Source of the DNA: a virus
Strand: one strand, 5' to 3'
Length of the DNA: 32,000 bases
IMG/VR virus record: IMGVR_UViG_3300032770_000004
Coordinates: 47,375 to 79,374 of that record
In this document: positions 2 through 31,476 of the stretch, in pieces
How the letters are laid out: every line of letters begins with the position of its first letter
How positions within the stretch are numbered: position 1 is the first letter of the stretch
Notes under the pieces: model-generated
Told to the model about the DNA's origin: nothing
The model's input: the letters and a program-made list of their open reading frames with translations, nothing else
Databases searched by the model: none
Position numbers and translations under genes: made by a program

Positions 2-151
2 CGTCGAGCTGCTAGAAAGCTTTCTGATGAACAAGTCGCCCAGCTCCGGACAGATCGCGTGAATGGTATGACTTATAACCAGCTTGTTGAAAAGTACGAC
101 ACCTGTAAATCGAACGTATCCTACATCGTTCGGGGCTTGACATGTAAGTAG
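2..151 (+). CDS. 3' end of a gene entering from the left edge; helix-turn-helix-like C-terminal tail
   Basis: Frame 2 is open from the window edge to TAG 149-151. The translation RRAARKLSDEQVAQLRTDRVNGMTYNQLVEKYDTCKSNVSYIVRGLTCK resembles HTH tails of phage homing-endonuclease or resolvase-type DNA binders. Confidence 0.45.
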   Translation, partial: RRAARKLSDEQVAQLRTDRVNGMTYNQLVEKYDTCKSNVSYIVRGLTCK

Positions 152-164
152 GATGTGGTAATCT
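137..164 (+). promoter_or_regulatory. sigma70-type promoter ending 6 nt before a tRNA 5' end
   Basis: TTGACA 137-142, 16-nt spacer, TGg-TAATCT 156-164. The tRNA acceptor stem begins at 171. Confidence 0.55.
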
Positions 165-170
165 TATTGT

Positions 171-245
171 TGCGCGGTGGAGCAGTCTGGTAGCTCGTGA
201 GGCTCATAACCTCAAGGTCGCGGGTTCAAATCCCTGCTCGCGCAT
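171..245 (+). tRNA. tRNA with CAU anticodon (Met, or Ile2 if lysidinylated)
   Basis: Hand fold: acceptor TGCGCGG/TCGCGCA, D stem GAGC/GCTC, anticodon stem TGAGG/CCTCA with loop CTCATAA, T arm GCGGG-TTCAAAT(C)-CCTGC. The T region has one extra nucleotide, so the ends are +/-1. Confidence 0.75.
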
Positions 246-1153: not shown

Positions 1154-1160
1154 GTAATCT
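1154..1160 (+). promoter_or_regulatory. GTAATCT element 8 nt upstream of the HNH-2 ATG
   Basis: Member of the recurrent (G)TAATCT family described in the findings. Confidence 0.4.
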
Positions 1161-1168
1161 TGTTGAGC

Positions 1169-1687
1169 ATGAAAACATGTTCCAAGTGCGGATCGGAGAA
1201 ACCCGAAGATCAGTTTCATTTAGCAGGGAATGGACGCAGACATACGTGGTGTAAGCCATGCCACAATGCCGTCACGCGCGAGCACTATCAAAAGAACAAA
1301 GGGAAATATCGCGAGAAGTCCTATCGAAATGGCAATAGGTATCGTCAAGAACGCCGAGAGTGGATTGCAGAATACAAAGCGACACACCCCTGCGCAGATT
1401 GCGGTCAGCAGTTTCATCCATACGCTATGGACTTGGATCGCGTGCGCGGAGAGAAGCATCTGGAGATCTCTGCTCTAGTAGGCGGCGGTTATAGCCGCGA
1501 AGCCATTGAAGCCGAGCTTGCAAAGTGTGATATAGTGTGCGCAATATGTCATCGAATGCGCACCTTCGAACGACGACACCGCCAGGTTGCGTCGAGTATT
1601 CCGTCGAGCTTGTTGGGCCGCACCGAACGCGCGATTGCGCGCGAGCGAATCAGCCCGAGACCTCGCGTGGAAGACGACGAGGGATGA
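1169..1687 (+). CDS. HNH homing endonuclease, copy 2
   Basis: The ORF-track start at 1118 lies inside tRNA-Asn, so I use the first ATG after the tRNA (1169). Motifs: CSKCG...WCKPC, then CADCG...DLDRV...CAICHRMRT. Paralog of 376-783. Confidence 0.85.
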   Translation: MKTCSKCGSEKPEDQFHLAGNGRRHTWCKPCHNAVTREHYQKNKGKYREKSYRNGNRYRQERREWIAEYKATHPCADCGQQFHPYAMDLDRVRGEKHLEISALVGGGYSREAIEAELAKCDIVCAICHRMRTFERRHRQVASSIPSSLLGRTERAIARERISPRPRVEDDEG

Positions 1688-3538: not shown

Positions 3539-3723
3539 CAAACGATCAAGCCAAACCTTTGGTAGTTATTATCGTCTTGCTGTTCGTCCTTTGGTGGGGC
3601 ATCCCTATCGCAATGGAATTGCTGTGGGGACCTAGCCGAGAGGCCGCAGTCGCGTTCGCGGTCGGTTGGATCCACCTTGCTGTAATTGGCCCTTACATTC
3701 TCTCTAGGATTCATTCCAAATGA
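3535..3723 (+). CDS. small membrane protein
   Basis: ATGA overlap at 3535; two hydrophobic helices. Confidence 0.6.
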   Translation: MTNDQAKPLVVIIVLLFVLWWGIPIAMELLWGPSREAAVAFAVGWIHLAVIGPYILSRIHSK

Positions 3724-3765
3724 CCGATGTTTCCACTCAGATATACGAGATCTTTCGAACTCGAT

Positions 3766-3794
3766 TTGACATCAACCTCGTTACGTGATACGGT
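3766..3794 (+). promoter_or_regulatory. sigma70-type promoter, predicted leaderless
   Basis: TTGACA 3766-3771, 17-nt spacer ending in TGa, TACGGT 3789-3794, then 6 nt to ATG 3801. Confidence 0.55.
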
Positions 3795-3800
3795 ATCGTC

Positions 3801-3971
3801 ATGGACAATCAAACCAAGTCGATTGAAGTGAGTTCTGGCGGTCTTGGCATCGGTTCTGTCATCGCTGCCATCCTTTCGTGGACGACCAACCACTCGGTTC
3901 TGTGGTGTATTCTCCATACCCTGCTCGGATGGCTCTACGTGGTTTTCTGGCTGTTCGTTCACAAGCTGTAG
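3801..3971 (+). CDS. 56-aa membrane protein
   Basis: Absent from the ORF track. Translation MDNQTKSIEVSSGGLGIGSVIAAILSWTTNHSVLWCILHTLLGWLYVVFWLFVHKL. Has its own promoter. Confidence 0.6.
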   Translation: MDNQTKSIEVSSGGLGIGSVIAAILSWTTNHSVLWCILHTLLGWLYVVFWLFVHKL

Positions 3972-4361: not shown

Positions 4362-4367
4362 GTTGTC

Positions 4368-4451
4368 GTATCGTTGGCATGTCTGGTGATTGCGCCCGCC
4401 TGTTAAGCGGTGAGCGAAAGCTCTAGGAGGGTTCGATCCCCTCACGATACG
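4368..4451 (+). tRNA. 84-nt type-II-shaped tRNA with GUU (Asn) anticodon
   Basis: Perfect acceptor GTATCGT/ACGATAC, 3-bp D stem with 11-nt loop, anticodon stem CCGC/GCGG with loop CTGTTAA, variable arm GAGC-GAAA-GCTC, T arm GAGGG-TTCGATC-CCCTC, discriminator G. Confidence 0.7.
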
Positions 4452-4463
4452 AGGAGAAGAACA

Positions 4464-6437: not shown

Positions 6438-6658
6438 AAAAGACCAAGAAGAAGCTCAAGACAGTAATCAGCGCTAACAAGCGCTGGGAAAGCGGTACAG
6501 ATCATCATCCAAAGTCCGTTGCTCTTTTCGAGAAGATCCGCAAGGTCGTCGACTGGAAAGATCGCGGCGACGGTGACAATGGCGAAGAGCTAATGTATCA
6601 GCTTGATGTCATTTTCGAAGCCAAGGAAAACAAAGAGAGCAAGCTAATCTTTGGGTGA
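6434..6658 (+). CDS. hypothetical protein
   Basis: ATGA overlap; ORF track. Confidence 0.65.
   Translation: MKKTKKKLKTVISANKRWESGTDHHPKSVALFEKIRKVVDWKDRGDGDNGEELMYQLDVIFEAKENKESKLIFG
6645..6650 (+). promoter_or_regulatory. TAATCT element 11 nt upstream of ATG 6662
   Basis: Recurrent motif; see findings. Confidence 0.35.
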
Positions 6659-6661
6659 CGC

Positions 6662-7153
6662 ATGTGGTTTCAGAAGTGGCTGCTGTACGGTTGTATCGGT
6701 CTCCTCATTGAAGTCTGGTTCACCTCGATTAGCTCGCTACTTCGACGCCACTGGAAGCTCACTGGTGTTACCTATCTGTGGATGATACTCCCATATGGTG
6801 GCGTGGCTATTCTTTCTGAACTCGTTTGGGATACGCTTGATCCTGCTCTCCTGGGAATGGGTTGGGGCCGATATCTCGTCATTGCATTGATCCTGGTGCC
6901 TCTTTGGTACGGTGCAGAAGCCCTATCGGCATGGACTATCAAGACCAGCACGCACTGGTTACAGAAATGGTTTGGTGGAACTGGTGGTGGTGTGATTCCC
7001 TGGGAATATGACAAATCGAAGTGGTCACCAGCTGGAATGATCAATCTCAAGTACTTCCCGTTCTGGCTTCTTCTGGCGTGCGTTTTTGGGCCGCTATCTG
7101 GTATACTGCAACGCGTTCTGCACTTTTTGTCAACGCAGACGGTAGGAAAATAA
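6662..7153 (+). CDS. polytopic membrane protein
   Basis: ORF track; 4-5 hydrophobic segments. Confidence 0.7.
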   Translation: MWFQKWLLYGCIGLLIEVWFTSISSLLRRHWKLTGVTYLWMILPYGGVAILSELVWDTLDPALLGMGWGRYLVIALILVPLWYGAEALSAWTIKTSTHWLQKWFGGTGGGVIPWEYDKSKWSPAGMINLKYFPFWLLLACVFGPLSGILQRVLHFLSTQTVGK

Positions 7154-12021: not shown

Positions 12022-12251
12022 GTAATCTACCCTGGTACCAGCGTCCGATTTTCCGAACATTCTCGTTCTGGGCGTGTGTGGTAGGATGTTGGCTGGACGT
12101 TAGCCTGTCCTATATATGCACGAAGATCCCGGAGCTTCATAGATGGGTTGGATACTGGTTGTTCTTTGCGTCTGTTTTTGCTCTGGGTGCGGTTATGCAT
12201 TGGGCCGCAGATCATTATCTTCGAAAGGAACGAGCGAGTACAAAGAAGTGA
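12018..12251 (+). CDS. small membrane protein
   Basis: ORF track; two hydrophobic helices. Confidence 0.6.
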   Translation: MSNLPWYQRPIFRTFSFWACVVGCWLDVSLSYICTKIPELHRWVGYWLFFASVFALGAVMHWAADHYLRKERASTKK

Positions 12252-12711: not shown

Positions 12712-12718
12712 GTAATCT
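12712..12718 (+). promoter_or_regulatory. GTAATCT element 7 nt upstream of ATG 12726
   Basis: Intergenic, with no SD between it and the ATG. Confidence 0.45.
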
Positions 12719-12725
12719 TGCTGGT

Positions 12726-13136
12726 ATGTTACTATCAGCTCGAATGCTTAAAGACGTTGCGAACGTCAACGTATGGGAACCAGATACGCAGCTCAGTTGG
12801 ACTGAAGGCGATCAGCTTACCATCTACTTCCAACTCGTTGATATGTCGGTGGATAAGCCAGACCAAGGCTTCAATCCGCCTGGACGTCGTTACGTTCCTG
12901 CATCCGGTGCTACTCTCTCAGTCACTCTAGAGAACATTGACCAAGCCAAACAGCTAACTCGTTTTGCTGTACAGCCCTTTACTGGCGACGGAAGCATTTG
13001 GTCTCTTTCCATCATGAGCACCGATGTCATTCGTGGAACACCTCAGATGCGTCTCACTCTGACTGAAGGTGGCGTGGTCACTCGCGGTCTAGCCAAGTGC
13101 TCGATCAAGATTTGGCCCCAGGAGAACGTGACCTAA
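12726..13136 (+). CDS. hypothetical protein, possibly virion-associated
   Basis: ORF track. First gene after an intergenic gap that carries GTAATCT. Confidence 0.65.
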   Translation: MLLSARMLKDVANVNVWEPDTQLSWTEGDQLTIYFQLVDMSVDKPDQGFNPPGRRYVPASGATLSVTLENIDQAKQLTRFAVQPFTGDGSIWSLSIMSTDVIRGTPQMRLTLTEGGVVTRGLAKCSIKIWPQENVT

Positions 13137-17027: not shown

Positions 17028-17033
17028 TAATCT
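17028..17033 (+). promoter_or_regulatory. TAATCT element 8 nt upstream of ATG 17042
   Basis: Lies in the 17-nt gap between the two giant genes. Confidence 0.35.
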
Positions 17034-17041
17034 AGTTAGGG

Positions 17042-19168
17042 ATGGAAGACGGAATTGAGCAGTTACTACAGGTAGATGATCCGATTGAGCGCAAGCTTGC
17101 TCTCAAGTCGAAGATTGTCGAGCCTTATCATCTTCGAATGGCACTCATGGATGAAGATCCAGATGTTCGCCTTGCCGCAGCCAAACATCCCAGTCTCACG
17201 CCAGAACTGATTAAGGAAGTCTTGCGTGGTGATGACAAATGGCTAGCAGAGCAGATTCTTCAACGTCCTGATTTGCGCCCAGAAGAGCTTGAGCACGCTT
17301 TAGCCGATCCAGACCTTAGGGGAACCGCAGCCAAGCATCCAGCGCTCTCTGAAGCCCAGCGGAACGCCTTAATCGAGGATCCTGAGACCCCAGACGGAGC
17401 CAGAGAACAGGCAGCCCAGGGCCTCATCAAGAACATTGGCGTGTTGACATATCCGCAGCTCGGTGAAGGCCGAGCCTATTCCATGCCGATGATTATTGAC
17501 CACCGTCCTGATGACAATATTCGTGGAACTACTGTCTACAACGCTAAGCGTACTCAGCCGATGAAGCCGGGCCAGGGTTATCTCTATAGCCACACCTCGG
17601 GCCATAATCCACAGGCCGAGCATGCTGGTGAAAGCCACGAAGCACAGCACATTCTCTTTGCCAAGCTTAAGCAGCGTTTCGGCCGCGAGGCTGGTTATCG
17701 CATCATCGCCAACACGCTTGCCGGTCTTGACCATGAGCATCGCCAGCATGTCTTCAATCTTCTGGACGCACATAAGCCCAAGTCTGCTCAGGATCCAATC
17801 CAGCGACCGGAAGAGGCTATTGCATATCTCCACAACTACCTGATGGATCCAGACCATCGACGCCAAGTTCATGTCAATATGCGTATCAGCCAGAACATTA
17901 ACGCCATGCGCGCGAGCGTGCAGAAGGCACGTAAGGCTTGGCATATGCTACGTGCTAGAGCTGAGGCTCTACGTCCAGAGGAAGTGGGCGTGCAGGTCAA
18001 GAAAGACGAACAGGTCATCGGTGATTGGGTTGAGAAGCTCAAGAAAAGCCAAGACGTTGATGATCCAAAAGTTGCAGACCATGTCGGAATGGACATGAAG
18101 CTGCCTGTTTTGTTACAGGCGGTCAAGTTCCTAACAGGCAAGGAGTTGGATCCAAGCATCGTACGACGCCATCTTATTGAGCAGGACGATGACATGAAGG
18201 AAGCCGTTCTTGCGGCAGCCGGTTTGACATCAAAAGAAGAACGCAAAGCTTTTGATGCCATTATGGATTTAGCTGAGCTGAATAAGTCTGAGGCAAAAGT
18301 AGACGCCAAAGACATTCAGGCACTTCTACCAGAAGATGAGCCTGTCGCTAAAGAAGTCCGCTGGTCATTCCAGCACGGAGAAGTCAAACCCGTAAAGCTC
18401 GGCGGTAAACACAGTAAGGGCACGTTGCTAGCAAAGGATTCAGACGGTCGCCTGCTTCTAATCAAGCCTGGATCCGGCAAGATTTCGCCAATCCGTGGAG
18501 CGCGCGAGGAAAAGGCCAATCAATCCCGTCGCGAGGCTGCATTCTCGTCTGTGGCTCGTTCTTGGGGTTTCAATCGTACTGTCCCTAGGGCTACGCTTCT
18601 AATCATCGATGGCAAGGAAATGGCGGTTATTGACATGTTGCCTTTGGATTGGTCGAATCTTCACAAGACTCGCATGGTGGATCCAACCGTTCCACAGAAG
18701 GCACTACGTGACTATCTAGACAGAGGTATTGTTCACAAATGGGCCGTGCTCGATTATGTACTCGGCAATGGAGATCGCCATGGTATGAACATGATGGTAT
18801 CGCCAGCCGATGAAAATCACAAGATCGCTCTCATTGACCATGGGTCGGCATTTGCTGGTTCTTCATTTGATCCTGGCCAGGACAAGAGCGCCTTTGTGCC
18901 CTACTATCTGCGCGCCTGGGGTCCACAGAAGGGCTTCATGAAGCTTAGCGAGAAGCAAAAGCTCGATACGATGCCCGTTCTTCACGAAACAAAGGATTTC
19001 GAACTACGAGATTGGATCGTCAAGCTCTCTGAAGAGGAGCTTGCTGCCCGTCTTCACCGTTTTGGCATCAACCCAGAACCAAGCGTTGAGCGCCTAAAAG
19101 CACTCAAGAATGCTGTGGCTCAAGCCAAGAGCGCGTCGCGTGTAATCAACGAGTTCTGGATCAAGTAA
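17042..19168 (+). CDS. 708-aa protein: N-terminal LRV/HEAT-like repeats plus C-terminal PI3/PI4-kinase-like catalytic domain
   Basis: Repeats DPDVRLAAAKHPSLTPELI and DPDLRGTAAKHPALSEAQ. Catalytic loop LGNGDRHGMNMMV at 18764-18790, and IDHGSAF at 18833-18853. Confidence 0.8.
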   Translation: MEDGIEQLLQVDDPIERKLALKSKIVEPYHLRMALMDEDPDVRLAAAKHPSLTPELIKEVLRGDDKWLAEQILQRPDLRPEELEHALADPDLRGTAAKHPALSEAQRNALIEDPETPDGAREQAAQGLIKNIGVLTYPQLGEGRAYSMPMIIDHRPDDNIRGTTVYNAKRTQPMKPGQGYLYSHTSGHNPQAEHAGESHEAQHILFAKLKQRFGREAGYRIIANTLAGLDHEHRQHVFNLLDAHKPKSAQDPIQRPEEAIAYLHNYLMDPDHRRQVHVNMRISQNINAMRASVQKARKAWHMLRARAEALRPEEVGVQVKKDEQVIGDWVEKLKKSQDVDDPKVADHVGMDMKLPVLLQAVKFLTGKELDPSIVRRHLIEQDDDMKEAVLAAAGLTSKEERKAFDAIMDLAELNKSEAKVDAKDIQALLPEDEPVAKEVRWSFQHGEVKPVKLGGKHSKGTLLAKDSDGRLLLIKPGSGKISPIRGAREEKANQSRREAAFSSVARSWGFNRTVPRATLLIIDGKEMAVIDMLPLDWSNLHKTRMVDPTVPQKALRDYLDRGIVHKWAVLDYVLGNGDRHGMNMMVSPADENHKIALIDHGSAFAGSSFDPGQDKSAFVPYYLRAWGPQKGFMKLSEKQKLDTMPVLHETKDFELRDWIVKLSEEELAARLHRFGINPEPSVERLKALKNAVAQAKSASRVINEFWIK

Positions 19169-19880: not shown

Positions 19881-20084
19881 TCATCGCTCCTCGTTCCGTT
19901 CAATTTGACACAACACGTTGATTGCGGCCATGATCCAGTTGGCGGGAGCCGGACTAACCTGGAAGCTTTCCAGCTCCTCTCGGCACAACTGATTGAAAGT
20001 CTTGGGGTTAATGCCATCAAGTCCATATGCGAGTCGCTGGAGACGGGCATATTCACGACGGGCAGCTTCATAATTCAAGATCAT
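19881..20084 (-). CDS. hypothetical protein
   Basis: ORF track. Preceded by a promoter-like element with its ATG 6 nt after the -10. Confidence 0.55.
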   Translation of the reverse strand: MILNYEAARREYARLQRLAYGLDGINPKTFNQLCREELESFQVSPAPANWIMAAINVLCQIERNEER

Positions 20085-20090
20085 GATACT

Positions 20091-20119
20091 ATCCTATCAT
20101 CTGGAAATGACAACGTCAA
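20091..20119 (-). promoter_or_regulatory. sigma70-type promoter, predicted leaderless
   Basis: On the - strand: TTGACG, 17 nt, TAGGAT, 6 nt, ATG 20084. Confidence 0.45.
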
Positions 20120-20124
20120 GCCCC

Positions 20125-20131
20125 GTAATCT
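20125..20131 (+). promoter_or_regulatory. GTAATCT element 7 nt upstream of ATG 20139
   Basis: Lies in the divergent intergenic region 20085-20138. Confidence 0.45.
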
Positions 20132-20138
20132 TTGGGGT

Positions 20139-20453
20139 ATGACGAATATTCCAGCAGCGCAGATTGAACTCAAAAAGAAGATCGGTACCGCAAAAGGTAA
20201 AGACGTTTGGCACGTCAAAACTAAGGGCGGCTTGCACCTCATTACGGATTCTGGCGGCCGACTGCTTGGATCCGGTCCTCACCGTTCTGTCGCCCGCTTC
20301 CTGGCACAGAAGTTCGAGCCTGATGTAGTGTTCACCGAGCTAAGCAAGAGCGACCACTACGATTACGATGACTTCAAGCACCTCCTGCCCGAATACGAAG
20401 CTCTGACCGAACACATGCGTCAACTTCAGGAAGAAATGAAGAAGCAGGAGTAA
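20139..20453 (+). CDS. hypothetical protein
   Basis: The ORF-track start at 19818 overlaps the antisense genes, so I trimmed to ATG 20139, which follows GTAATCT. Confidence 0.6.
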   Translation: MTNIPAAQIELKKKIGTAKGKDVWHVKTKGGLHLITDSGGRLLGSGPHRSVARFLAQKFEPDVVFTELSKSDHYDYDDFKHLLPEYEALTEHMRQLQEEMKKQE

Positions 20454-20456
20454 CCG

Positions 20457-21404
20457 ATGGCTCGCCAGCCGGTAGAAGATATCCTCACAACGATTCCGCA
20501 GGAGCGGATCAGTTTTGACAACGACGCATTTGATGCGATGCTTCGTAGTCAGGGCGTGAAGCTTGTTCACTATCAGGCCATGCGCTGTCCGGTTGGAATG
20601 ACTGCACTCGATGACAATCGACGTCCACATGAGGACCATGCAGGTTGCACTAATGGTTTCATATACAAGAAAGTTGGTGTCATTACCGCGCTTTTTGTTG
20701 GCAACAGCAAGCACAAGAATCCTTCTGACCTTGGCTATTGGGATGGGAGCACTGTTCAGGTTTCATTTCCTCGCTATTATGATCAGGCTGAGGATTGTCC
20801 AGCTGATGACAAACAGGAAATTTTCGTAGCTCCGTTCGACCGCTTCTACCTACATGAAGAATCGATTGTGGTGCCGACGTGGCAGCTCTTTCTTCATCAT
20901 GAGTCTGGCATCGACCGCCTCAAGTATCCTCCGATTAAGGTTCAAGCTCTCATGGATTCTCAGGGGATCAGCTATACTGAGGGCGCCGATTTTGTCATGT
21001 TTAGCAATCAGCTTAAGTGGATTGGACGTCAACCCTCTGAGCAGATGACCGTAGGCCCAGGATTGACAACGGCTCTGGCGCCAGATGGCACGGACCCTAC
21101 TGACATTGCTGGAATCAACATTCAGAACTCTGGCGATTCTACGCGTGGCTCTGTATGCAGCGTGCGCTATCTTTATCGTCCGTTTTGGTATGTTGGCCAA
21201 ATCATTCATGAGATCCGCGTTACCCAGGAAACTAATGCCTATGGTGACCGCTCTCTTAAGCGTGCTCCCCAGCAGGTCATGTTGCATCGCGAATATGTCC
21301 CGTTGACAAAACAGGCCGATGAGCCTGGAAGTCCTGGAACGACAAGCTCTGACAGCTTCAGGCTCATGCCTGGGCCCGCTGATGGCGGCTTTGGCCCTAA
21401 GTAA
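20457..21404 (+). CDS. hypothetical protein, probable virion protein
   Basis: AGGAG SD; ORF track. Confidence 0.7.
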   Translation: MARQPVEDILTTIPQERISFDNDAFDAMLRSQGVKLVHYQAMRCPVGMTALDDNRRPHEDHAGCTNGFIYKKVGVITALFVGNSKHKNPSDLGYWDGSTVQVSFPRYYDQAEDCPADDKQEIFVAPFDRFYLHEESIVVPTWQLFLHHESGIDRLKYPPIKVQALMDSQGISYTEGADFVMFSNQLKWIGRQPSEQMTVGPGLTTALAPDGTDPTDIAGINIQNSGDSTRGSVCSVRYLYRPFWYVGQIIHEIRVTQETNAYGDRSLKRAPQQVMLHREYVPLTKQADEPGSPGTTSSDSFRLMPGPADGGFGPK

Positions 21405-21407
21405 TCT
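21401..21407 (+). promoter_or_regulatory. GTAATCT element 7 nt upstream of ATG 21415
   Basis: Overlaps the upstream stop codon. Confidence 0.4.
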
Positions 21408-21414
21408 AACCACC

Positions 21415-22155
21415 ATGAACGATGTCTCTTTCCAGTTTCTTGTAGGCGTTCTTGGTAGCGATGGCGCTAAGGTCTTAAAGAAGGCCACCGAACGCGTTTC
21501 CGACCTGGATCGCCTCCTGGTACCCCGCTCGGCATTATCCTGGGTGATGTCTCGTTCTTCGTTTGAAGGTGCTATTCCAGGTATGGACAACAGTTACCTA
21601 AAATTCGCCAAGTCTGAGGCTGGCTTTGATGGGATGGTCATGGTCCGTGACATTCCTATTGACTTTCAAGGAGCCAGTCCGGAATACGTAGCCGCTGCGA
21701 TTGGTGTAGCTGTTGGTATTGAAGGCGTAAGCCCCGAAGTAAATGACAAAACCTTGATGAAGTTCGGCAAGTCCATCGATGTGCTGGTACAGGCGCAGAG
21801 CCTTATCAAGTCCATGGCGAAGATCGAGCTGCCCGGCCAGACTGCTAAGCCTCTACCGCAAGGTGGGCCAATAGCTGCGACCGCACCCCAGAAGCAGCCG
21901 AAGATGAGTAAGCCCAAGCTTCCTAGGCCCTCGAAGGTTCCAGCTCTGAAAGTAGAGAAATCCGAGGCAGAGCATACCTGTGATAAGTGTGGCAAGCAGC
22001 TTTTCAACGACGGCAGATTTAAGCCCTGCATCTGCTTTGCTGACCTATCAAAGTCGATTCGTGTCACAACCTATAAAGATGGATGGGTGCTAGAATTCAA
22101 TGGGTCGGTCGATCATGAATCTGTACGGGCGCTTTCGAAAGTATTCAAGAGGTGA
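21415..22155 (+). CDS. hypothetical protein with C-terminal CDKCG...CICF motif
   Basis: The ORF-track start at 21319 overlaps the upstream gene; ATG 21415 follows GTAATCT. Confidence 0.65.
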   Translation: MNDVSFQFLVGVLGSDGAKVLKKATERVSDLDRLLVPRSALSWVMSRSSFEGAIPGMDNSYLKFAKSEAGFDGMVMVRDIPIDFQGASPEYVAAAIGVAVGIEGVSPEVNDKTLMKFGKSIDVLVQAQSLIKSMAKIELPGQTAKPLPQGGPIAATAPQKQPKMSKPKLPRPSKVPALKVEKSEAEHTCDKCGKQLFNDGRFKPCICFADLSKSIRVTTYKDGWVLEFNGSVDHESVRALSKVFKR

Positions 22156-22959: not shown

Positions 22960-22966
22960 GTAATCT
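22960..22966 (+). promoter_or_regulatory. GTAATCT element 24 nt upstream of ATG 22991
   Basis: Intergenic. An AAGGAG SD lies between the element and the ATG. Confidence 0.5.
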
Positions 22967-22990
22967 AGGTGACATTGAAGGAGACCATCG

Positions 22991-23335
22991 ATGGCCACTA
23001 TTTCCTCTGATACAAACACCCGTCTTAGCATCGCCCTCACCAAGTCGGATGCGGGTAACGAAGTCGCTAACGCTCTAAACAACGCTCTTGCGCAGAGCAG
23101 CCAGAATCCCTGGTGCCTCCCCGCCGTAATCGTTGCTACCAATGTCAGCCAGACTATTGACTTTGGTGCTCTCGCTGTTGGAGACCTTGTCGTCCACATC
23201 CCCGCTTCAGCCGGTAACGCTCAGAAGCTGGTGATTTCGACTGCTGGAACTCTTGGAGTCGCTGCTGTTGTTGGCGATCTCTACATTGTTCTTCGTGCGT
23301 TTGTAGCGCCCACTTACCCGACCCAGCAGTTCTAA
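22991..23335 (+). CDS. 114-aa Ala/Val/Thr-rich protein, likely abundant virion component
   Basis: Consensus AAGGAG SD, own promoter-like element, and a strong terminator immediately downstream. Confidence 0.75.
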   Translation: MATISSDTNTRLSIALTKSDAGNEVANALNNALAQSSQNPWCLPAVIVATNVSQTIDFGALAVGDLVVHIPASAGNAQKLVISTAGTLGVAAVVGDLYIVLRAFVAPTYPTQQF

Positions 23336-23360
23336 TCTGCTTCTTGGAGTGGCTAATTTC

Positions 23361-23408
23361 AAACCGCCTTGGCTCAAAAACAATGAGCCGGGCGGTTTTG
23401 TTATTTGC
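23361..23408. terminator. bidirectional rho-independent terminator
   Basis: AAACCGCC-TT-GGCTCA loop AAAACAA TGAGCC-G-GGCGGTTTTGTTATTT, with A-rich 5' and T-rich 3' flanks. It sits between convergent genes. Confidence 0.8.
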
Positions 23409-23919
23409 TGCGTACCGGACACCAGTTTGAATGGCCTGTGGCGAATGGCTGAATGCCGCATGCCGCAGCTCCACATTCACAAACTCCGAAATCGACAGAT
23501 CCCTCCTTTTCCTCTGCTTCATGGAGATCTGCGAACGGATCGAATGTAATAATGTTATGTACCGCTGCTCCGGGTACTCCCCGGCTACTGCCCGAATGTG
23601 TCAGCGTGACATCTGAATAGACCTTGCATTTGCGACAGTTCGTGCAGGTATTCGACGTTATTGAATGCTTCGACCAGGGACAACCACACTCAGCACACAT
23701 GTCGCTCTGCTTTGGAGGACTCATCCAAGGAGGCAAAGTTTGCCAAAGCCCCTTTGCGTAGATCACACCGTTACAAAACTTGTGATGGCCACCTCGATGT
23801 GTGCAGACCATGAGATTGCTGCCACCGGGGATTACGCATAGATTGCTACAAGTACAGTTGTACGTATTTTCGCCGCAATCTGTACAATCACCACTAACCC
23901 AATCATACCATTCCTTCAT
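23401..23919 (-). CDS. Cys-rich protein with C-terminal CxCG...GHSxWC motif
   Basis: The ORF-track start at 23961 is TTG; ATG 23919 lies 6 nt after TGgTATAAT. About 25 Cys residues. The tail CECGAAACGIQPFATGHSNWCP is shared with 27571-28206. Confidence 0.65.
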   Translation of the reverse strand: MKEWYDWVSGDCTDCGENTYNCTCSNLCVIPGGSNLMVCTHRGGHHKFCNGVIYAKGLWQTLPPWMSPPKQSDMCAECGCPWSKHSITSNTCTNCRKCKVYSDVTLTHSGSSRGVPGAAVHNIITFDPFADLHEAEEKEGSVDFGVCECGAAACGIQPFATGHSNWCPVRSK

Positions 23920-23925
23920 AGCACG

Positions 23926-23934
23926 ATTATACCA
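23926..23934 (-). promoter_or_regulatory. extended -10 promoter, predicted leaderless
   Basis: On the - strand: TGgTATAAT, 6 nt, ATG 23919. Confidence 0.45.
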
Positions 23935-24019
23935 TACCCTAGGAGAGATTCGGACTCTCAACCTTCCGGGTCATTACTCCGGCTGCTCTGGCCAATTGGA
24001 GCTACTAGGGCGAACTTCT

Positions 24020-27063: not shown

Positions 27064-27304
27064 TTGTAGCTACCTTTCTTGCGGTCTTCTTGGTTGGAAG
27101 TACGACGGGAGTTCCTGCTTTCACGGCATCCTTCACTGCATCCTTGATTTCAAGGATTCGATGGGGTCGCATCTGGCGGCCGAACTTCTCCTTGATTTTC
27201 TCCTGCGCGGCACGAATAGTCACCGTAGGATCTTGCTTTACCAGTTCGACGAGAAAATTCTCACGATTGCTTACTTCTTCCTTCTTCAGTCTCATTTTGG
27301 TCAT
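26987..27304 (-). CDS. hypothetical basic protein with Ala/Gln-rich tail
   Basis: ORF track; consistent with the orientation of the block. Confidence 0.55.
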   Translation of the reverse strand: MTKMRLKKEEVSNRENFLVELVKQDPTVTIRAAQEKIKEKFGRQMRPHRILEIKDAVKDAVKAGTPVVLPTKKTARKVATSEQEAEAAGQAAGAVTAVPGQQEAV

Positions 27305-27539
27305 CTTCCTTTTCGGCCAGCCCCTTAAGAGCTTCTCGCAGGGGGGTCGAAACTTCTGTAATTTGGTGTGCTACCTCAAGTCTCATTATGAGCGTCTTGG
27401 CACGATTGTCAAGAGCAGAGAAATCTGGAGCGGTTTCATCGTCTTCTGCGTCTTCTGCGAGATCGACTAGGAAATCCCTGTAGACTTCCAATGCATCAAT
27501 CAGTAGGTCGCGTTCGTCTTGGGTGAGATTGAGGTTCAT
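27261..27539 (-). CDS. acidic hypothetical protein
   Basis: ORF track. Asp/Glu-rich: DLAEDAEDDETAPDF...EKEDDQNETEE. Confidence 0.6.
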   Translation of the reverse strand: MNLNLTQDERDLLIDALEVYRDFLVDLAEDAEDDETAPDFSALDNRAKTLIMRLEVAHQITEVSTPLREALKGLAEKEDDQNETEEGRSKQS

Positions 27540-27545
27540 GATTCC

Positions 27546-27574
27546 ATTCCTTCATACTTGAAAGCTTTTGTCAA
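27546..27574 (-). promoter_or_regulatory. possible promoter with weak -10
   Basis: On the - strand: TTGACA (overlapping the upstream stop), 17 nt, AGGAAT, 6 nt, ATG 27539. The AAGGA could instead be an SD. Confidence 0.3.
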
Positions 27575-28848: not shown

Positions 28849-29055
28849 TCAAGCCACCGTCTTCTCGAAAAACTCTCCCAGCTCGGCGCGCTGCTCACGT
28901 TCCAAAGCCAGCTTACCCTCCTCAAAGGCCATGGCCAGGAGAGCGGCAATCTCGCTGCGGCCAAGGTGGGCTTCCACGCCGTTCGGATTCTTCCGCTTCT
29001 GGAAGATCTTGTCGGTCACCAGCATCCCAAATTCAACGGAGTTAGAGGTTTTCAT
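28849..29055 (-). CDS. hypothetical protein
   Basis: The ORF-track start at 29064 overlaps the -10 hexamer. ATG 29055 lies 7 nt after TAGGAT. Confidence 0.6.
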   Translation of the reverse strand: MKTSNSVEFGMLVTDKIFQKRKNPNGVEAHLGRSEIAALLAMAFEEGKLALEREQRAELGEFFEKTVA

Positions 29056-29062
29056 GATTAAC

Positions 29063-29091
29063 ATCCTATCATATGTTTAACTGAATGTCAA
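29063..29091 (-). promoter_or_regulatory. sigma70-type promoter, predicted leaderless
   Basis: On the - strand: TTGACA (overlapping the upstream stop), 17 nt, TAGGAT, 7 nt, ATG 29055. Confidence 0.5.
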
Positions 29092-29450
29092 CAGCTGCCA
29101 CGAGAGAACCAAGCAAACATGTCCGCCTCTGAACGCCAACGCCAAAGTAACTGTGGCAGAGCGAAAGGAGTGATTGGCAGAGCGAAAGGAGTGATATCTG
29201 GCTCGGATACTTCTAGGGCTCCAGTCTCAAGCAAGTGATCCAGGGCGACAGCGCAACGCTGACAGGAGTAACGGTCGGTCTGCCGCGCGACTCTTATTTT
29301 TGGATCAAAAGCGGGTTCGATGGTTTCGCGGACATCCCAGCCACACAGACATTTCCTGAAGATATCCTGCGTGAGCGCCCTATCGTAAAGCCTTGTCAGG
29401 TTTTGAAGGTTTTGAGGCCACAGCGGCCAGCAATGTTCTTGGTACACCAT
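29088..29450 (-). CDS. hypothetical Trp/Cys-containing protein with duplicated ITPFALP heptapeptide
   Basis: ORF track; first gene of the - strand block. Confidence 0.65.
   Translation of the reverse strand: MVYQEHCWPLWPQNLQNLTRLYDRALTQDIFRKCLCGWDVRETIEPAFDPKIRVARQTDRYSCQRCAVALDHLLETGALEVSEPDITPFALPITPFALPQLLWRWRSEADMFAWFSRGSC
29154..29195. repeat. perfect 2 x 21-bp tandem repeat (TGGCAGAGCGAAAGGAGTGAT)
   Basis: Units at 29154-29174 and 29175-29195 are identical and in frame. They encode ITPFALP twice on the - strand. Confidence 0.9.
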
Positions 29451-29456
29451 ATCCCC

Positions 29457-29485
29457 TTTATAGCACCGGCAAGTTTTAATGTCAA
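29457..29485 (-). promoter_or_regulatory. near-consensus sigma70 promoter, predicted leaderless
   Basis: On the - strand: TTGACA, 17 nt, TATAAA, 6 nt (GGGGAT), ATG 29450. Confidence 0.6.
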
Positions 29486-29498
29486 CACCGTTCTGCGT

Positions 29499-29505
29499 GT
29501 AATCT
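29499..29505 (+). promoter_or_regulatory. GTAATCT element 10 nt upstream of ATG 29516
   Basis: Lies in the divergent intergenic region 29451-29515, with no SD. Confidence 0.45.
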
Positions 29506-29515
29506 TACAAGTACC

Positions 29516-29779
29516 ATGACGAATTATCGTTTAACTCCGGAACAATACCAAGAAATTTGGGAAAAACAAGGGCGTTGTTGCGCGGTCTGTAAGGCAACCA
29601 AAAACTCTATTGAGGCCAGATCCTTTCCAGTAGATCATGATCACATGACGGGTATGGTTCGAGGGATTCTTTGTAATTCGTGTAATTTAGCCATAGGGCA
29701 TCTGAAGGAAGATCCGCGACTCCTAGAGTCTGCTTTGAGATACCTAAATGCGAGCCCCGCTTTGGAGAAAACAGAATGA
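29516..29779 (+). CDS. endonuclease VII-type HNH nuclease
   Basis: Motif: GRCCAVCKA...PVDHDHMTGMVRGILCNSCNLAIGHL...ALRYL. Paralogous in motif to 9631-10080. Confidence 0.85.
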   Translation: MTNYRLTPEQYQEIWEKQGRCCAVCKATKNSIEARSFPVDHDHMTGMVRGILCNSCNLAIGHLKEDPRLLESALRYLNASPALEKTE

Positions 29780-31476
29780 ATGCCATTTGGGTTTACATCT
29801 CGTGGTCGGCTGACCAGATCGACCGAATTCTTGAAGATGCAAAGAGAACTGACGAAATCGAGAACGTTCAGCGCATCATGCAGGCTATTGACAATGGCAA
29901 CGAATTGTGGAAGAGTTGGGCTCTTTCTCATGATGGAACTGTTGTATCCATGTCGGGGACAGAGGGCTGTATCAAGATTGGCGCCGACCATCTTGCGGAT
30001 CTCGTAGAACTGAGAGAACGTTACTCTAAGGCGACTAAGTCGACCGTCAGTGTGGGTGTAGCTCCAAAGCTCAGTGAATCTGAAATCGCACTCCAGCGTG
30101 CTCAGAGTGAAGGTGGAGACCGGATCCAGCTCTTCATGGAAGAGGATAGTCGAGACGATGAAGGTAAGCTCTCCAAGGCCGACAAGCCTGCACTTAATTC
30201 CCCAGCCGCTGGTGGCGGAATGACTGGGCCTTCGATGGCTCCTGCCGCAGCGCCAGCTGCGCCTGTAGCTGAAGGAAGCGAGCATAGCGAGAATGAAGCT
30301 CTTCAGAATTTGATTGACACGACTCCACCACCTCCCGAAGCGTCTGGTCCAGACATGGATCAATTAAAGGACTTTTTGTCAAGCTCCGCAGATGCACAGG
30401 GGCAAAAGGACACAGCTGAAGCCGATGCTGCCCAGAGTGCTAATGACAAAGCAGAAGGACAAAAGGATATTAAGGCACAAATCCTTAAGATCCTCAAAGT
30501 CTGGAAGACTCGCGGCGTAGAGCTTGAGAAGCTATCCGAAAAAGACCCGGAGCTATACAAGTCCATGGTCGGCATGCTTCAGACCATGGTCGCCATGGCT
30601 AAAGAACTGTTCGGAGAGAATCCTGCTGAACCTGAAGCACAGGAGCCTGAATCCGGATCGGAAACTGTCTCTAAGTCTGAATTTCAAAAGGCTTTCCCTG
30701 GAGACTATCCTCCTAGTGATCGAATTGCTATCGATGCGATGGGAGAAGCCGGGGGTATGCTTAAGCAGCACAAGGGTGTCGGGAATGTACTTAAGCAGAA
30801 GGCTGCCGCTGCTAAAAGGCAAGCTTTGGCTGGAATCCCAGATCCCGGTAACTTAGGAACTCCAAATGGTCGATGCAAAATGTGCGGAACGGCCTACGAG
30901 ATGGGGCCGCACGATACGCTGTGCCAGGATTGCGACACCAATGTAGGGCCAACCGCTGCTGGTGGCGCGGGCTCGAAGGCCAAGCAATACGCTCTAAACT
31001 ACAGAATTCATGATGTTGCCAATCGCAATTCGGCTGAACGACAAAACAATCAAATCCCACTAACGGACATTGGAGGCCGAGCCTACGATGTCAATTCCAT
31101 TGATTACCCAGAACTAGGTAGAGCGGCCGAATACGGTATGACTACTGCTGAAAAGCAATCGATGCCAGTAGAGCATGGCTACGAGCGTCCCAACGCTTAT
31201 GGCCCTACTTCCTTAGCGGCAATGCGCGATCGAGCTAGGAAGCAGGGGCTTCTTGGCAAGGCCGCTCTCGAAGCCGGTAAGACCGGCCGCCACAACGTCG
31301 TTCTACCTCCTGGTTCTCAGAAGGACGCAGCAGCCAATGGCTCGCGTGACAGTGGACAAATCAAGATATTGGATCCAGCCACAGGCAGGACCAAATGGCG
31401 CTCCGTTCGCGCAGGTCTTGTAATGGCTCCTGATGGCACTCCCGTTTCTTCTCGCAATCCTTCTGGTGGAAAGTGA
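29776..31476 (+). CDS. 566-aa protein: structured N-terminal domain, long acidic Ala/Pro/Glu-rich linker, C-terminal Cys4 motif (scaffold or internal-protein-like)
   Basis: ATGA overlap; GGAG upstream. Motif: CKMCG...CQDCD. The low-complexity centre is AAAPAAPVAEGSEHSENE... Confidence 0.75.
   Translation: MNAIWVYISWSADQIDRILEDAKRTDEIENVQRIMQAIDNGNELWKSWALSHDGTVVSMSGTEGCIKIGADHLADLVELRERYSKATKSTVSVGVAPKLSESEIALQRAQSEGGDRIQLFMEEDSRDDEGKLSKADKPALNSPAAGGGMTGPSMAPAAAPAAPVAEGSEHSENEALQNLIDTTPPPPEASGPDMDQLKDFLSSSADAQGQKDTAEADAAQSANDKAEGQKDIKAQILKILKVWKTRGVELEKLSEKDPELYKSMVGMLQTMVAMAKELFGENPAEPEAQEPESGSETVSKSEFQKAFPGDYPPSDRIAIDAMGEAGGMLKQHKGVGNVLKQKAAAAKRQALAGIPDPGNLGTPNGRCKMCGTAYEMGPHDTLCQDCDTNVGPTAAGGAGSKAKQYALNYRIHDVANRNSAERQNNQIPLTDIGGRAYDVNSIDYPELGRAAEYGMTTAEKQSMPVEHGYERPNAYGPTSLAAMRDRARKQGLLGKAALEAGKTGRHNVVLPPGSQKDAAANGSRDSGQIKILDPATGRTKWRSVRAGLVMAPDGTPVSSRNPSGGK

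What the first reader, a model, noticed from the sequence alone, without database searches (positions are those of the whole stretch)
29055..29485. Host-type promoters positioned so that transcription should start on the ATG (leaderless mRNAs) or on a tRNA 5' end
The same geometry recurs: -35, 17 nt, -10, then 6-7 nt to the gene start, with no SD sequence.
- Minus strand, ATG 29450: TTGACA-17-TATAAA-6-ATG (29457-29485).
- Minus strand, ATG 29055: TTGACA-17-TAGGAT-7-ATG (29063-29091).
- Minus strand, ATG 27539: TTGACA-17-AGGAAT-6-ATG (27546-27574), which is weak.
- Minus strand, ATG 23919: TGgTATAAT-6-ATG (23926-23934).
- Minus strand, ATG 20084: TTGACG-17-TAGGAT-6-ATG (20091-20119).
- Plus strand, ATG 3801: TTGACA-17(TGa)-TACGGT-6-ATG (3766-3794).
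- Plus strand, tRNA 5' end at 171: TTGACA-16-TGgTAATCT-6 (137-164).
Bacterial RNAP usually initiates about 7 nt past the -10. These units would therefore be leaderless, and the tRNA would need no RNase P 5' trimming. Most genes internal to operons do carry GGAG-type SDs, so the phage appears to mix the two initiation modes. The pattern also resolves several ambiguous start codons.
Basis: partly seen in the sequence, partly recalled or inferred. Interest (0 to 1): 0.7.

Follow-up and report, generated by a model that had tools for sequence, protein, structure and literature searches.

The report
Promoters flush against phage start codons
In this uncultured relative of Myxococcus phage Mx1, about a dozen genes have a promoter placed so close to the ATG that the mRNA should have no leader or ribosome-binding site; this way of starting translation is already known, but it is used unusually often here and has not been tested by experiment.

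Summary

Across 190 independently called gene starts in this phage and four relatives:
- TANNNT peaks 12-14 nt before the start codon.
- TTGAC peaks at -35 to -38.

The 25 genes with a promoter flush against the start codon share three features:
- All use ATG.
- Most lack a Shine-Dalgarno sequence (SD): 4/25 have one, against 124/165 of the other genes.
- A pyrimidine precedes the ATG in 21/25, as expected at a transcription start.

Orthologous genes keep the geometry although the sequence has diverged. Two divergent intergenic gaps of 54 and 65 bp leave almost no room for leaders.

It lies upstream of plus-strand genes, and five of them have the ATG 7-8 nt downstream.

The phage is Mx1-like. 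Mx1 itself has the same two promoter classes but mostly with SD leaders of about 20 nt.

Leaderless mRNAs are the best explanation (about 0.75). No transcription start site (TSS) data exist.

- The tRNA claim rests on one case whose first base is U.
- The 27539 unit has a poor -10.

Novelty: a new member of a known kind.

The parts
29448..29485 (-). Sigma-A-type promoter flush with the ATG: TTGACA(29485-29480)-17-TATAAA(29462-29457)-6-ATG(29450). It drives the 120-aa ORF at 29088-29450.
   Evidence: Sequence. The orthologous promoter in L003 is TTGACA-17-TACATT-6-ATG. The ORF has no homologue outside this phage and a weak coding score. Prodigal chose the GTG at 29447.
29053..29091 (-). Sigma-A-type promoter flush with the ATG: TTGACA-17-(TGa)TAGGAT-7-ATG(29055). 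It drives the 68-aa gene at 28849-29055.
   Evidence: The orthologues are L003 9937(-), TTGACA-17-TACATT-6-ATG, and L004 10111(-), TTGACA-18-(TGg)TAAGCT-6-ATG. The N-termini align from M1.
29500..29518 (+). TAATCT-type promoter, then 10 nt, then ATG 29516 of an Endonuclease VII gene (29516-29779). It sits back to back with the 29485 promoter in a 65-bp divergent gap.
   Evidence: In L003, L004, L005 and L007 the same promoter sits 7-8 nt from the mCpol ATG.
20082..20119 (-). Sigma-A-type promoter flush with the ATG: TTGACG-17-(TGa)TAGGAT-6-ATG(20084). It drives the 67-aa gene at 19881-20084.
   Evidence: The L004 homologue has TTGACA-17-TAAATT-6-ATG(1413). The coding score is positive.
20126..20141 (+). 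TAATCT-7-ATG(20139). It drives the 104-aa gene at 20139-20453. Together with the 20119 promoter it fills a 54-bp divergent gap.
   Evidence: The orthologues in L003, L004 and Mx1 have the same YAATCT motif but leaders of 16-23 nt with an AAGGTG or GAGGTG SD. The N-termini align.
3766..3803 (+). Sigma-A-type promoter flush with the ATG: TTGACA-17-(TGa)TACGGT-6-ATG(3801). It drives the 56-aa ORF at 3801-3971.
   Evidence: Prodigal calls this ORF. An antisense ORF at 3711-3962 has a similar coding score.
23917..23934 (-). Extended -10 promoter flush with the ATG: TGgTATAAT-6-ATG(23919). It drives the 172-aa gene at 23401-23919 and lies directly 3' of a tRNA-like element.
   Evidence: The L003 orthologue has TGaTACAAT-6-ATG.
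27537..27574 (-). Doubtful unit: TTGACA-17-AGGAAT-6-ATG(27539). The gene is 27261-27539.
   Evidence: The -35 is kept 29-31 nt before the ATG in L003 and L004, but none of the three has an acceptable -10.
137..171 (+). Hybrid promoter TTGACA-16-TGgTAATCT, followed 6 nt later by position 1 (U) of tRNA-Met(CAT), which spans 171-245.
   Evidence: This is a single case. No other tRNA here, in the relatives or in Mx1 has a flush promoter.
1155..1171 (+). TAATCT-8-ATG(1169). It drives the 172-aa gene at 1169-1687, just after the tRNA cluster.
   Evidence: The homologues in L004 and Mx1 align from residue 1. L004 has TAATCT-7-GTG.
12713..12728 (+). TAATCT-7-ATG(12726). It drives the 136-aa gene at 12726-13136.
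   Evidence: The Mx1 orthologue aligns from residue 1 and has CAATCT, then a 19-nt leader with GGAGG. Prodigal mis-called the start at 12744.
17028..17044 (+). TAATCT-8-ATG(17042). It drives the 708-aa PI3/PI4-kinase-like gene at 17042-19168.
   Evidence: The Mx1 orthologue has CAATCT-10-ATG.
21402..21417 (+). TAATCT-7-ATG(21415). It drives the 246-aa gene at 21415-22155. The TAA of the motif is the stop codon of the upstream gene.
   Evidence: L003 has the identical geometry. L004 has TAATCT, then 11 nt containing GGAG, then ATG.
22961..22993 (+). TAATCT promoter with a normal 24-nt leader containing AGGAG, then ATG 22991. This is a leadered example within the window.
6645..6664 (+). TAATCT-11-ATG(6662). 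Short-leader case, for the gene at 6662-7153.

Best explanation
The window is part of a roughly 170-kb Mx1-like myophage. It carries two kinds of promoter.
1. Host sigma-A-type promoters (TTGACA-17-TAnnnT, or extended -10 TGnTAnnnT). They lie in front of small minus-strand genes that are probably early.
2. A compact family-specific element, G-(T/C)AATCT, with no -35. It lies in front of plus-strand genes; in Mx1 these include tail sheath, tailspike and baseplate genes. It is probably read with a phage-encoded sigma factor.

In this phage and its close relatives both kinds are often placed with the -10-like hexamer ending 6-8 nt before an ATG. RNA polymerase should then start on or within 1-2 nt of the A of the ATG. 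The transcript has no 5' UTR and no SD. It would be translated by the leaderless route, in which a ribosome with fMet-tRNA binds a 5'-terminal AUG. Downstream genes of each operon use ordinary GGAG-type SDs.

Shown here: the geometry, its statistics, its conservation, and the ATG / no-SD / pyrimidine-at--1 signature.

Inferred: the transcription start sites, the timing of the two classes, the sigma factor that reads TAATCT, and the mode of translation.
For: 1. Position-specific peaks at 190 Prodigal gene starts. Prodigal looks for SDs, so it is not biased towards this result.
   - TANNNT begins at -14/-13/-12 in 6/10/7 genes, against about 1.7 per position elsewhere.
   - TTGAC lies at -38 to -35 in 14 genes, against about 0.2 per position.
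   - YAATCT lies at -14/-13 in 10 genes.
2. ATG is the top triplet 6-8 nt after each promoter type. TAATCT-N7-8-ATG occurs 7 times against 0.51 expected. The strict sigma-A pattern occurs 2 times against 0.02.
3. The 25 flush genes have a distinct signature.
   - 25/25 start with ATG, against 141/165 of the others.
   - 4/25 have an SD-like motif, against 124/165.
   - 21/25 have a pyrimidine at -1, against 84/165 (p=0.002). This matches the known preference for a pyrimidine at -1 and a purine at +1.
4. Orthologues keep the geometry although the sequence differs.
   - The 29055 group has three orthologues, all flush.
   - In the L001-6773 group, 4 of 5 are flush with an extended -10, and the fifth has a 29-nt leader with GGAGG.
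   - The 23919 gene and L003 3812 are both flush.
5. Divergent gaps of 54 bp (20084/20139) and 65 bp (29450/29516) hold two back-to-back promoters. They leave 6-10 nt on either side.
6. Mx1 serves as a natural control. It has the same two motifs, but TANNNT peaks at -37 to -30 (52 of 247 genes) and TTGAC at -61 to -53 (34 genes), followed by an SD. The motifs therefore behave as promoters, and the flush position is a derived state.
7. A TANNNT signal about 12 nt before the start codon is the published criterion for leaderless genes in bacteria (PMC3160421).
8. None of the ten flush genes in the window has an in-frame SD-led alternative start within its first 31 codons.
Against: - No 5'-end data exist for this phage or for Mx1.
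- Some -10 hexamers are imperfect (TATAAA, TACGGT).
- For 29450 there is a weaker upstream promoter-like site (29551-29523, 9/12 matches). There is also an AAGGGG-6-GTG(29447) arrangement that could give an SD-led start.
- The 29450 ORF has no homologue outside this phage, and the 3801 ORF is small and ambiguous.
- The 5' ends of the flush ORFs are not less structured than those of other genes.
- The host is unknown. No genome-wide figure for leaderless translation in Myxococcota was found; there is one predicted case, pexR (PMC12754779).
- The TAATCT element has no -35, and its reading as a promoter is inferred from its position only.
Confidence: 0.75

Rival explanations
1. The sigma-A-type sites are real promoters, but the TAATCT element is not. 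It could instead be an RNA-level signal, such as an endonuclease processing site at operon junctions or a terminator or anti-terminator element. It lies next to start codons only because it marks gene boundaries. The TAATCT-class genes would then be translated from processed or read-through RNAs.
For: - TAATCT has no -35 partner.
- It often overlaps or directly follows the stop codon of the upstream gene, for example at 21402 and 23333.
- Its total count in the window is not above chance: 16 against 13.8.
- One copy (23333) lies at the end of an operon, just before a terminator-like hairpin.
Against: - At 137-164 TAATCT sits exactly where a -10 should, 16 nt after TTGACA and preceded by TGn.
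- It has the two key -10 bases, A at position 2 and T at position 6.
- All 11 plus-strand copies are intergenic, and all 5 minus-strand copies are antisense inside genes.
- It heads divergent units where no upstream transcript can exist (20126, 29500; L003 9987, 13065).
- In the 68% GC relative L005 all 5 copies are on the coding strand upstream of genes.
- Even as a processing site it would leave a leader of only 7-8 nt.
Confidence: 0.12
2. The promoters are real, but transcription starts elsewhere in the allowed range or from further upstream promoters. The mRNAs would then carry short or ordinary leaders. Translation would use weak non-SD contacts or a nearby alternative start, for example GTG 29447 after AAGGGG.
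For: - Start-site choice varies over positions 6-9 after the -10.
- The TAATCT-10-ATG (29516) and TAATCT-11-ATG (6662) cases must have leaders of a few nt.
- 29450 has a possible upstream promoter and an SD-like AAGGGG.
- 28815 has TTGACA-17-TATGTG-8-ATG, but GGAG also lies in the right place for an SD.
Against: - The peak is sharp at -12 and -13. A pyrimidine at -1 and an A at +1 are the preferred start context.
- A leader of 5 nt or less is still functionally leaderless.
- SD motifs are depleted five-fold.
- The divergent gaps leave no room for other promoters.
Confidence: 0.1
3. The pattern is due to chance or to mis-annotated starts. Promoter-like strings lie next to ATGs that are not real start codons.
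For: - Several ORFs are short, have no homologue outside this phage, or are ambiguous (29450, 3801).
- Two TAATCT-8-ATG hits (9507-, 13586-) are antisense inside genes and are probably chance.
Against: - Shuffle controls.
- The triplet control.
- Independent gene calls.
- N-terminal alignments that begin at M1.
- The geometry recurs in relatives with 45-68% GC.
Confidence: 0.03

Closest known systems
Leaderless ('TA-led') genes of bacteria, as defined by a TANNNT signal about 12 nt upstream of the start codon (Zheng et al. 2011, PMC3160421); the classic phage case is lambda cI transcribed from PRM
   Same: - The -10 hexamer ends 6-7 nt before the start codon.
- There is no SD.
- The start codon is AUG.
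- Such genes are mixed with SD-led genes in the same genome.
   Different: - Here the pattern is seen in a large lytic-type myophage.
- It affects many transcription-unit heads (about 12% of all called genes), not one repressor gene.
- It also involves a second, non-host promoter class.
- No TSS has been mapped.
Myxococcus phage Mx1 (OR576727; PMC10720576)
   Same: - Gene order is shared: thyX, dNMP kinase, NUDIX, kinase, then mCpol.
- Proteins are 25-53% identical.
- Genome size is about 170 kb, with many tRNA genes.
- GC content is below that of the Mx1 host (55.5% in Mx1, about 50% in this window).
- The same TTGAC-17-TAnnnT and YAATCT motifs lie upstream of genes.
   Different: - Mx1 early promoters sit about 20 nt further upstream and are followed by a conserved leader with GGAG.
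- Only about 1 sigma-A-type gene and 4 CAATCT genes are flush, out of 247.
- No DNA-level similarity was found.
T4-type late promoters (TATAAATA read by gp55, no -35). This comparison rests on my own knowledge.
   Same: - It is a short -10-like element of 7-8 bp.
- There is no -35.
- It lies upstream of structural genes.
- A phage-encoded sigma-like factor is available: Mx1 WNM70309.1, with more than 369 homologues, many on contigs of about 160-180 kb.
   Different: - The sequence differs (G-YAATCT).
- Neither the factor nor the timing has been tested.
- The sigma gene was not shown to exist in this phage, because the window does not cover that region.
Leaderless tRNAs of Nanoarchaeum equitans (promoters placed so that transcription starts at tRNA +1 or -1; PMC10100707)
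   Same: One tRNA (171-245) has a strong promoter whose expected start falls on tRNA position 1.
   Different: - Only 1 of 7 predicted tRNAs shows it.
- The four tRNAs downstream in the cluster have spacers and need 5' processing anyway.
- Position 1 is U, whereas N. equitans shifts to a purine at -1 for three of its tRNA species (PMC10100707).
- The host presumably has RNase P.

Membership tests
Leaderless (TA-led) protein-coding genes | A -10-like TANNNT hexamer begins about 12-13 nt upstream of the start codon | tested here: met
   There is a peak at -14/-13/-12 (23 of 190 starts, against a background of about 1.7 per position). The individual sites were verified.
Leaderless (TA-led) protein-coding genes | No Shine-Dalgarno sequence in front of the start codon | tested here: met
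   An SD-like motif is present in 4/25 flush genes, against 124/165 other genes.
Leaderless (TA-led) protein-coding genes | AUG (rarely GUG) start codon at the 5' end | tested here: met
   25/25 flush genes use ATG, against 85% of the others. One relative has TAATCT-7-GTG.
Leaderless (TA-led) protein-coding genes | Primary transcript 5' end mapped 5 nt or less from the start codon | not testable with these tools
   No transcriptome data are available. A pyrimidine at -1 and an A at +1 fit the start-site preference, but this is indirect.
Sigma-70/sigma-A-type promoter | TTGACA-like -35, a spacer of 16-18 nt and a TAnnnT -10 (or an extended TGn -10) | tested here: met
   Met for 29091, 20119 and 3766 and for 23934 (extended -10). 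Partly met for 29485 (TATAAA). Not met for 27574 (AGGAAT).
Sigma-70/sigma-A-type promoter | Drives transcription with the host holoenzyme | not testable with these tools
   The host is unknown. In Mx1 the same motif shows a positional peak upstream of 34-52 genes.
Leaderless tRNA genes (N. equitans type) | The promoter lies at a fixed distance, so that transcription starts at +1 or -1 of the tRNAs | tested here: not met
   Only tRNA-Met at 171 has it. The other 6 predicted tRNAs in the window, 4 in the relatives and 22 in Mx1 do not.
Leaderless tRNA genes (N. equitans type) | The initiating nucleotide is a purine | tested here: not met
   Position 1 is U171. The nearest purines are G169 and G172.
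Mx1-like myophages | Shared gene order and homologous core proteins | tested here: met
   The only tblastn hits in the phage collection for the mCpol protein and for the 315-aa protein (20457-21404) are to Mx1. The gene order is syntenic.
Late promoters read by a phage sigma factor (T4 gp55-like logic) | A short -10-like motif without a -35, upstream of virion genes | tested here: met
   The logo is G-[T/C]AATCT-[T], with no information upstream. In Mx1 the motif lies upstream of the tail sheath, tailspike and baseplate genes.
Late promoters read by a phage sigma factor (T4 gp55-like logic) | Dependence on a phage-encoded sigma factor and late timing | not tested
   Mx1 encodes a putative sigma factor, and the family is widespread. 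No homologue lies in the 32-kb window or the fetched loci.

The most novel reading that the evidence does not exclude
A whole clade of roughly 170-kb Mx1-like phages has moved both its host-type early promoters and its own G-YAATCT promoters flush against start codons. A tenth or more of its genes would then be made from leaderless mRNAs. These include virion-region genes, and in a strain variant a homing-endonuclease gene. Orthologous genes switch between SD-led and leaderless forms, with Mx1 keeping the leadered state.

This may reflect a deliberate translation strategy during takeover, such as independence from SD / anti-SD recognition. The first tRNA of the cluster may also be made with a mature 5' end, without RNase P.
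Probability: 0.15. Interest if true: 0.75.

Novelty: new member of a known kind. Interest (0 to 1): 0.45.

Why it matters
- **Annotation.** If the prediction holds, gene callers tuned to SD motifs place several starts wrongly in these phages. Here that affects 12726 and 29450, and in the relatives the mCpol gene of L004 and a 1518-aa gene of L005.
- **Regulatory map.** Two promoter classes are defined for a large and almost unstudied phage family. More than 369 homologues of the Mx1 sigma factor were found in public data, many on contigs of about 160-180 kb.
- **Natural comparison.** The same genes under the same promoters occur with and without a leader. This allows a direct test of what leaderless initiation costs or gains.
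- **Testability.** Mx1 and M. xanthus are culturable. Mx1 has a few flush genes, for example the baseplate assembly gene (CAATCT-7-ATG).

Tried and rejected
- **Near-identity DNA search against phage records:** no match. The phage was placed only through protein matches to Mx1.
- **The search for related loci in viral contigs with the mCpol protein:** nothing found.
- **Homologues of the 120-aa ORF at 29450:** only the phage itself, so the gene could not be confirmed by conservation.
- **Less structure at the 5' end of leaderless ORFs:** no difference in the folding energy of the first 25 or 40 nt.
- **Other tRNAs with a flush promoter:** none in the window, the relatives or Mx1. The RNase-P-independence idea was therefore set aside as unsupported.
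- **Overall count of TAATCT:** not enriched. Only its placement is informative.
- **CAATCT as a variant motif in the 50% GC phages:** too frequent to be informative. It is informative only in Mx1 and in L007.
- **My own codon-usage gene finder:** too crude, since it missed several real genes. It was replaced by the collection's Prodigal calls.
- **Genome-wide leaderless fraction in Myxococcus:** not found in the literature. The Cappable-seq paper does not report it.
- **Link between the Mx1-type sigma gene and this phage:** the best candidate (P0031) is from other samples.
Full report
**What is there**

- 29485-29448(-): TTGACA-17-TATAAA-6-ATG.
- 29091-29053(-): TTGACA-17-TAGGAT-7-ATG.
- 20119-20082(-): TTGACG-17-TAGGAT-6-ATG.
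- 3766-3803(+): TTGACA-17-TACGGT-6-ATG.
- 23934-23917(-): TGgTATAAT-6-ATG.
- 27574-27537(-): TTGACA-17-AGGAAT-6-ATG.
- 137-170(+): TTGACA-16-TGgTAATCT-6, directly before position 1 of tRNA-Met. ARAGORN and the Rfam tRNA model agree on position 1.

**Is it more than chance?**

- An internal control keeps the promoters and asks which triplet follows them at a gap of 6-8 nt. ATG is the most frequent of the 64 triplets after all three promoter types. It follows 4 of 13 full sigma-A-type sites, 8 of 38 TGnTAnnnT sites and 7 of 16 TAATCT sites.

**Independent gene calls**

The public collection holds Prodigal calls for contigs of the same phage (L001, L008, L009). L001 is identical to the window over their 6164-nt overlap. 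It also holds calls for four relatives, found through the mCpol protein at 29776-31476: L003, L004, L005 and L007. These share 33-57% amino-acid identity with the window and have 45-68% GC.

Prodigal searches for SD motifs, so it is not biased towards this finding. Over 190 such starts:
- TANNNT begins at -14/-13/-12 in 6/10/7 genes (background about 1.7 per position).
- TTGAC lies at -38 to -35 in 14 genes (background about 0.2 per position).
- The SD core peaks at -12 to -9 in most other genes.

The 25 genes with a flush promoter differ from the other 165 in three ways:
- All 25 start with ATG (85% of the others do).
- 4/25 have an SD-like motif (124/165 of the others do).
- 21/25 have a pyrimidine just before the ATG (84/165 of the others; p=0.002). 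A start site preferred by bacterial RNA polymerase looks like this: pyrimidine at -1, purine at +1.

TAATCT, usually G-TAATCT-T with no conserved -35, lies in or at the edge of an intergenic gap in all 11 plus-strand copies. The five minus-strand copies are antisense inside genes.
- Five plus-strand copies are followed by an ATG after 7-8 nt: 1169, 12726, 17042, 20139 and 21415.
- TAATCT-N7-8-ATG occurs 7 times against 0.51 expected.
- Two copies have short leaders: 6662 (11 nt) and 29516 (10 nt).
- One has a normal 24-nt AGGAG leader (22991).
- The tRNA promoter is a hybrid. There TAATCT sits exactly where a -10 belongs, 16 nt after TTGACA and preceded by TGn. This is the best evidence that TAATCT acts as a -10-like element.

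**Comparative evidence**

- The orthologues of the 29055 gene have TTGACA-17-TACATT-6-ATG (L003) and TTGACA-18-TAAGCT-6-ATG (L004). The proteins align from M1.
- A gene just beyond the window (L001 6773-) and its orthologues have TGgTATACT-7, TGcTATACT-6, TGgTATTAT-6 and TGcTAGACT-7 before the ATG. The L007 orthologue has TGtTACAAT followed by a 29-nt GGAGG leader.
- The 23919 gene has TGgTATAAT-6 here and TGaTACAAT-6 in L003.
- The 20084 gene has a flush counterpart in L004: TTGACA-17-TAAATT-6-ATG.
- The reverse also occurs. The 20139 gene is flush here but has SD leaders of 16-23 nt after the same motif in L003, L004 and Mx1. The 12726 gene is flush here but has a 19-nt GGAGG leader in Mx1.
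- The two divergent gaps, 20084/20139 (54 bp) and 29450/29516 (65 bp), each contain one promoter of each class, back to back. Only 6-10 nt remain on either side.

**Identity of the phage, and a natural control**

No phage record matches at the DNA level. The mCpol protein and the 315-aa protein at 20457-21404 each hit only Myxococcus phage Mx1, and gene order is shared. Mx1 is 169.6 kb with 55.5% GC and 22 tRNA genes; its host has 68.8% GC (PMC10720576).

Over all 247 annotated Mx1 starts:
- The same motifs are present but shifted. TANNNT peaks at -37 to -30 (52 genes) and TTGAC at -61 to -53 (34 genes), followed by a conserved leader and GGAG.
- Only about one sigma-A-type gene and four CAATCT genes are flush.

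The motifs therefore behave as promoters in a cultured relative. The flush position is a feature of the window's clade.

In Mx1 the YAATCT motif precedes the tail sheath, tailspike and baseplate genes. Mx1 also encodes a putative sigma factor, whose family has more than 369 members, many on contigs of about 160-180 kb. I could not show that this phage has the gene.

**Interpretation**

A TANNNT signal about 12 nt before the start codon is the published criterion for leaderless genes in bacteria (PMC3160421). The first leaderless mRNA found was in phage lambda, according to that paper. The most likely reading is that about ten units in this window give leaderless or nearly leaderless mRNAs. These would be translated from a 5'-terminal AUG, while internal genes use SDs. 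I put this at about 0.75, because no 5' ends have been mapped.

The weak points, unit by unit:
- 27539 has no usable -10 in any of the three phages.
- 29450 has an imperfect -10 (TATAAA). Its ORF has no homologue outside this phage. It also has a possible alternative: a weaker promoter at 29551-29523 together with AAGGGG-6-GTG.
- 3801 is a small ORF with an antisense competitor.

**The tRNA claim**

The geometry is real, but it is a single case. No other tRNA in the window, the relatives or Mx1 shows it. The four tRNAs downstream in the cluster are separated by spacers and need 5' processing in any case. Position 1 is U, a poor initiating nucleotide, so the start may be at G172 or upstream. 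The known parallel is Nanoarchaeum equitans, where all tRNA promoters are placed this way (PMC10100707). That defining regularity is absent here.

**Verdict**

This is a new member of a known kind. It also yields two useful by-products: the promoter classes of the Mx1-like phages, and natural pairs of leadered and leaderless orthologues.

Noticed in passing
window 29516-29779 (+): An 87-aa Endonuclease VII gene (PF02945, E=2e-25) sits between the TAATCT promoter and the mCpol gene (29776-31476), overlapping it by ATGA. In relatives L003, L004, L005 and L007 the mCpol ATG follows the promoter directly. This looks like a homing-endonuclease insertion that took over the promoter.
   Followed up: partly
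L008 15265-15925 (between the counterparts of window 13981 and 13988): A strain variant of the same phage carries an extra 215-aa HTH_7/Endonuclease_7 gene of about 650 bp that the window lacks. It has its own TAATCT-7-ATG. It appears to be a mobile endonuclease gene carrying the phage-type flush promoter.
   Followed up: partly
window 23935-24011 (-) and 4367-4452 (+): ARAGORN calls tRNA-Ile(AAT) and an 86-nt tRNA-Asn(GTT) here, but neither reaches the Rfam tRNA gathering score. The first is conserved in position in L003 and L004, and a gene start follows within 2-16 nt. It may be a tRNA-like element rather than a decoding tRNA.
   Followed up: partly
window 29154-29195 (-): There is a perfect tandem duplication of a 21-nt unit (ATCACTCCTTTCGCTCTGCCA x2) inside the 120-aa ORF that has no homologue outside this phage. 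It gives the peptide repeat TPFALP-I-TPFALP.
   Followed up: no
window 29776-31476 (+); L003, L004, L005, L007, Mx1: A 566-aa protein with an mCpol (minimal CRISPR polymerase, PF18182) domain is conserved at the head of a plus-strand gene block in all the relatives and in Mx1. Its role in a phage is unexplained.
   Followed up: no
Mx1 record about 86000-92000, minus strand (L011 43000-49000): More than ten consecutive small Mx1 early genes each have their own TTGAC-17-TAGTAT promoter. Each is followed by a conserved leader (GGATCT..CCTC..AACA..GGAG). (A)CCTC follows the -10 in 22 of 38 sites, which suggests a shared regulatory or RNA element.
   Followed up: no
window 12023-12028 (+) and 23333-23338 (+): Two intergenic TAATCT copies have no ATG nearby. 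One lies in a 212-bp gap 114 nt before the next called gene. The other lies at the end of an operon, just before a terminator-like hairpin (23368-23392). Possible small RNAs or unannotated small ORFs.
   Followed up: no
whole window: TTGACA occurs 47 times, against 19.6 in shuffles. Most copies are inside genes on the coding strand, so the excess is not explained by promoters alone.
   Followed up: no
L004 3543-3555 (+); L005 14543-14558 (+): L004 has TAATCT-7-GTG in front of the homologue of the window's 1169 gene, a possible leaderless GTG start. In L005, TAATCT-7-ATG lies 90 nt upstream of, and in frame with, the called start of a 1518-aa gene, which suggests the start was mis-called.
   Followed up: partly
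window 14241-17024 and 17042-19168 (+): A 927-aa NUDIX plus acetyltransferase fusion is followed by a 708-aa PI3/PI4-kinase-like protein. Both are conserved in Mx1, where they are annotated as NUDIX hydrolase and kinase. L005 also carries a Ribosomal_L12-domain gene next to the divergent promoter region.
   Followed up: no
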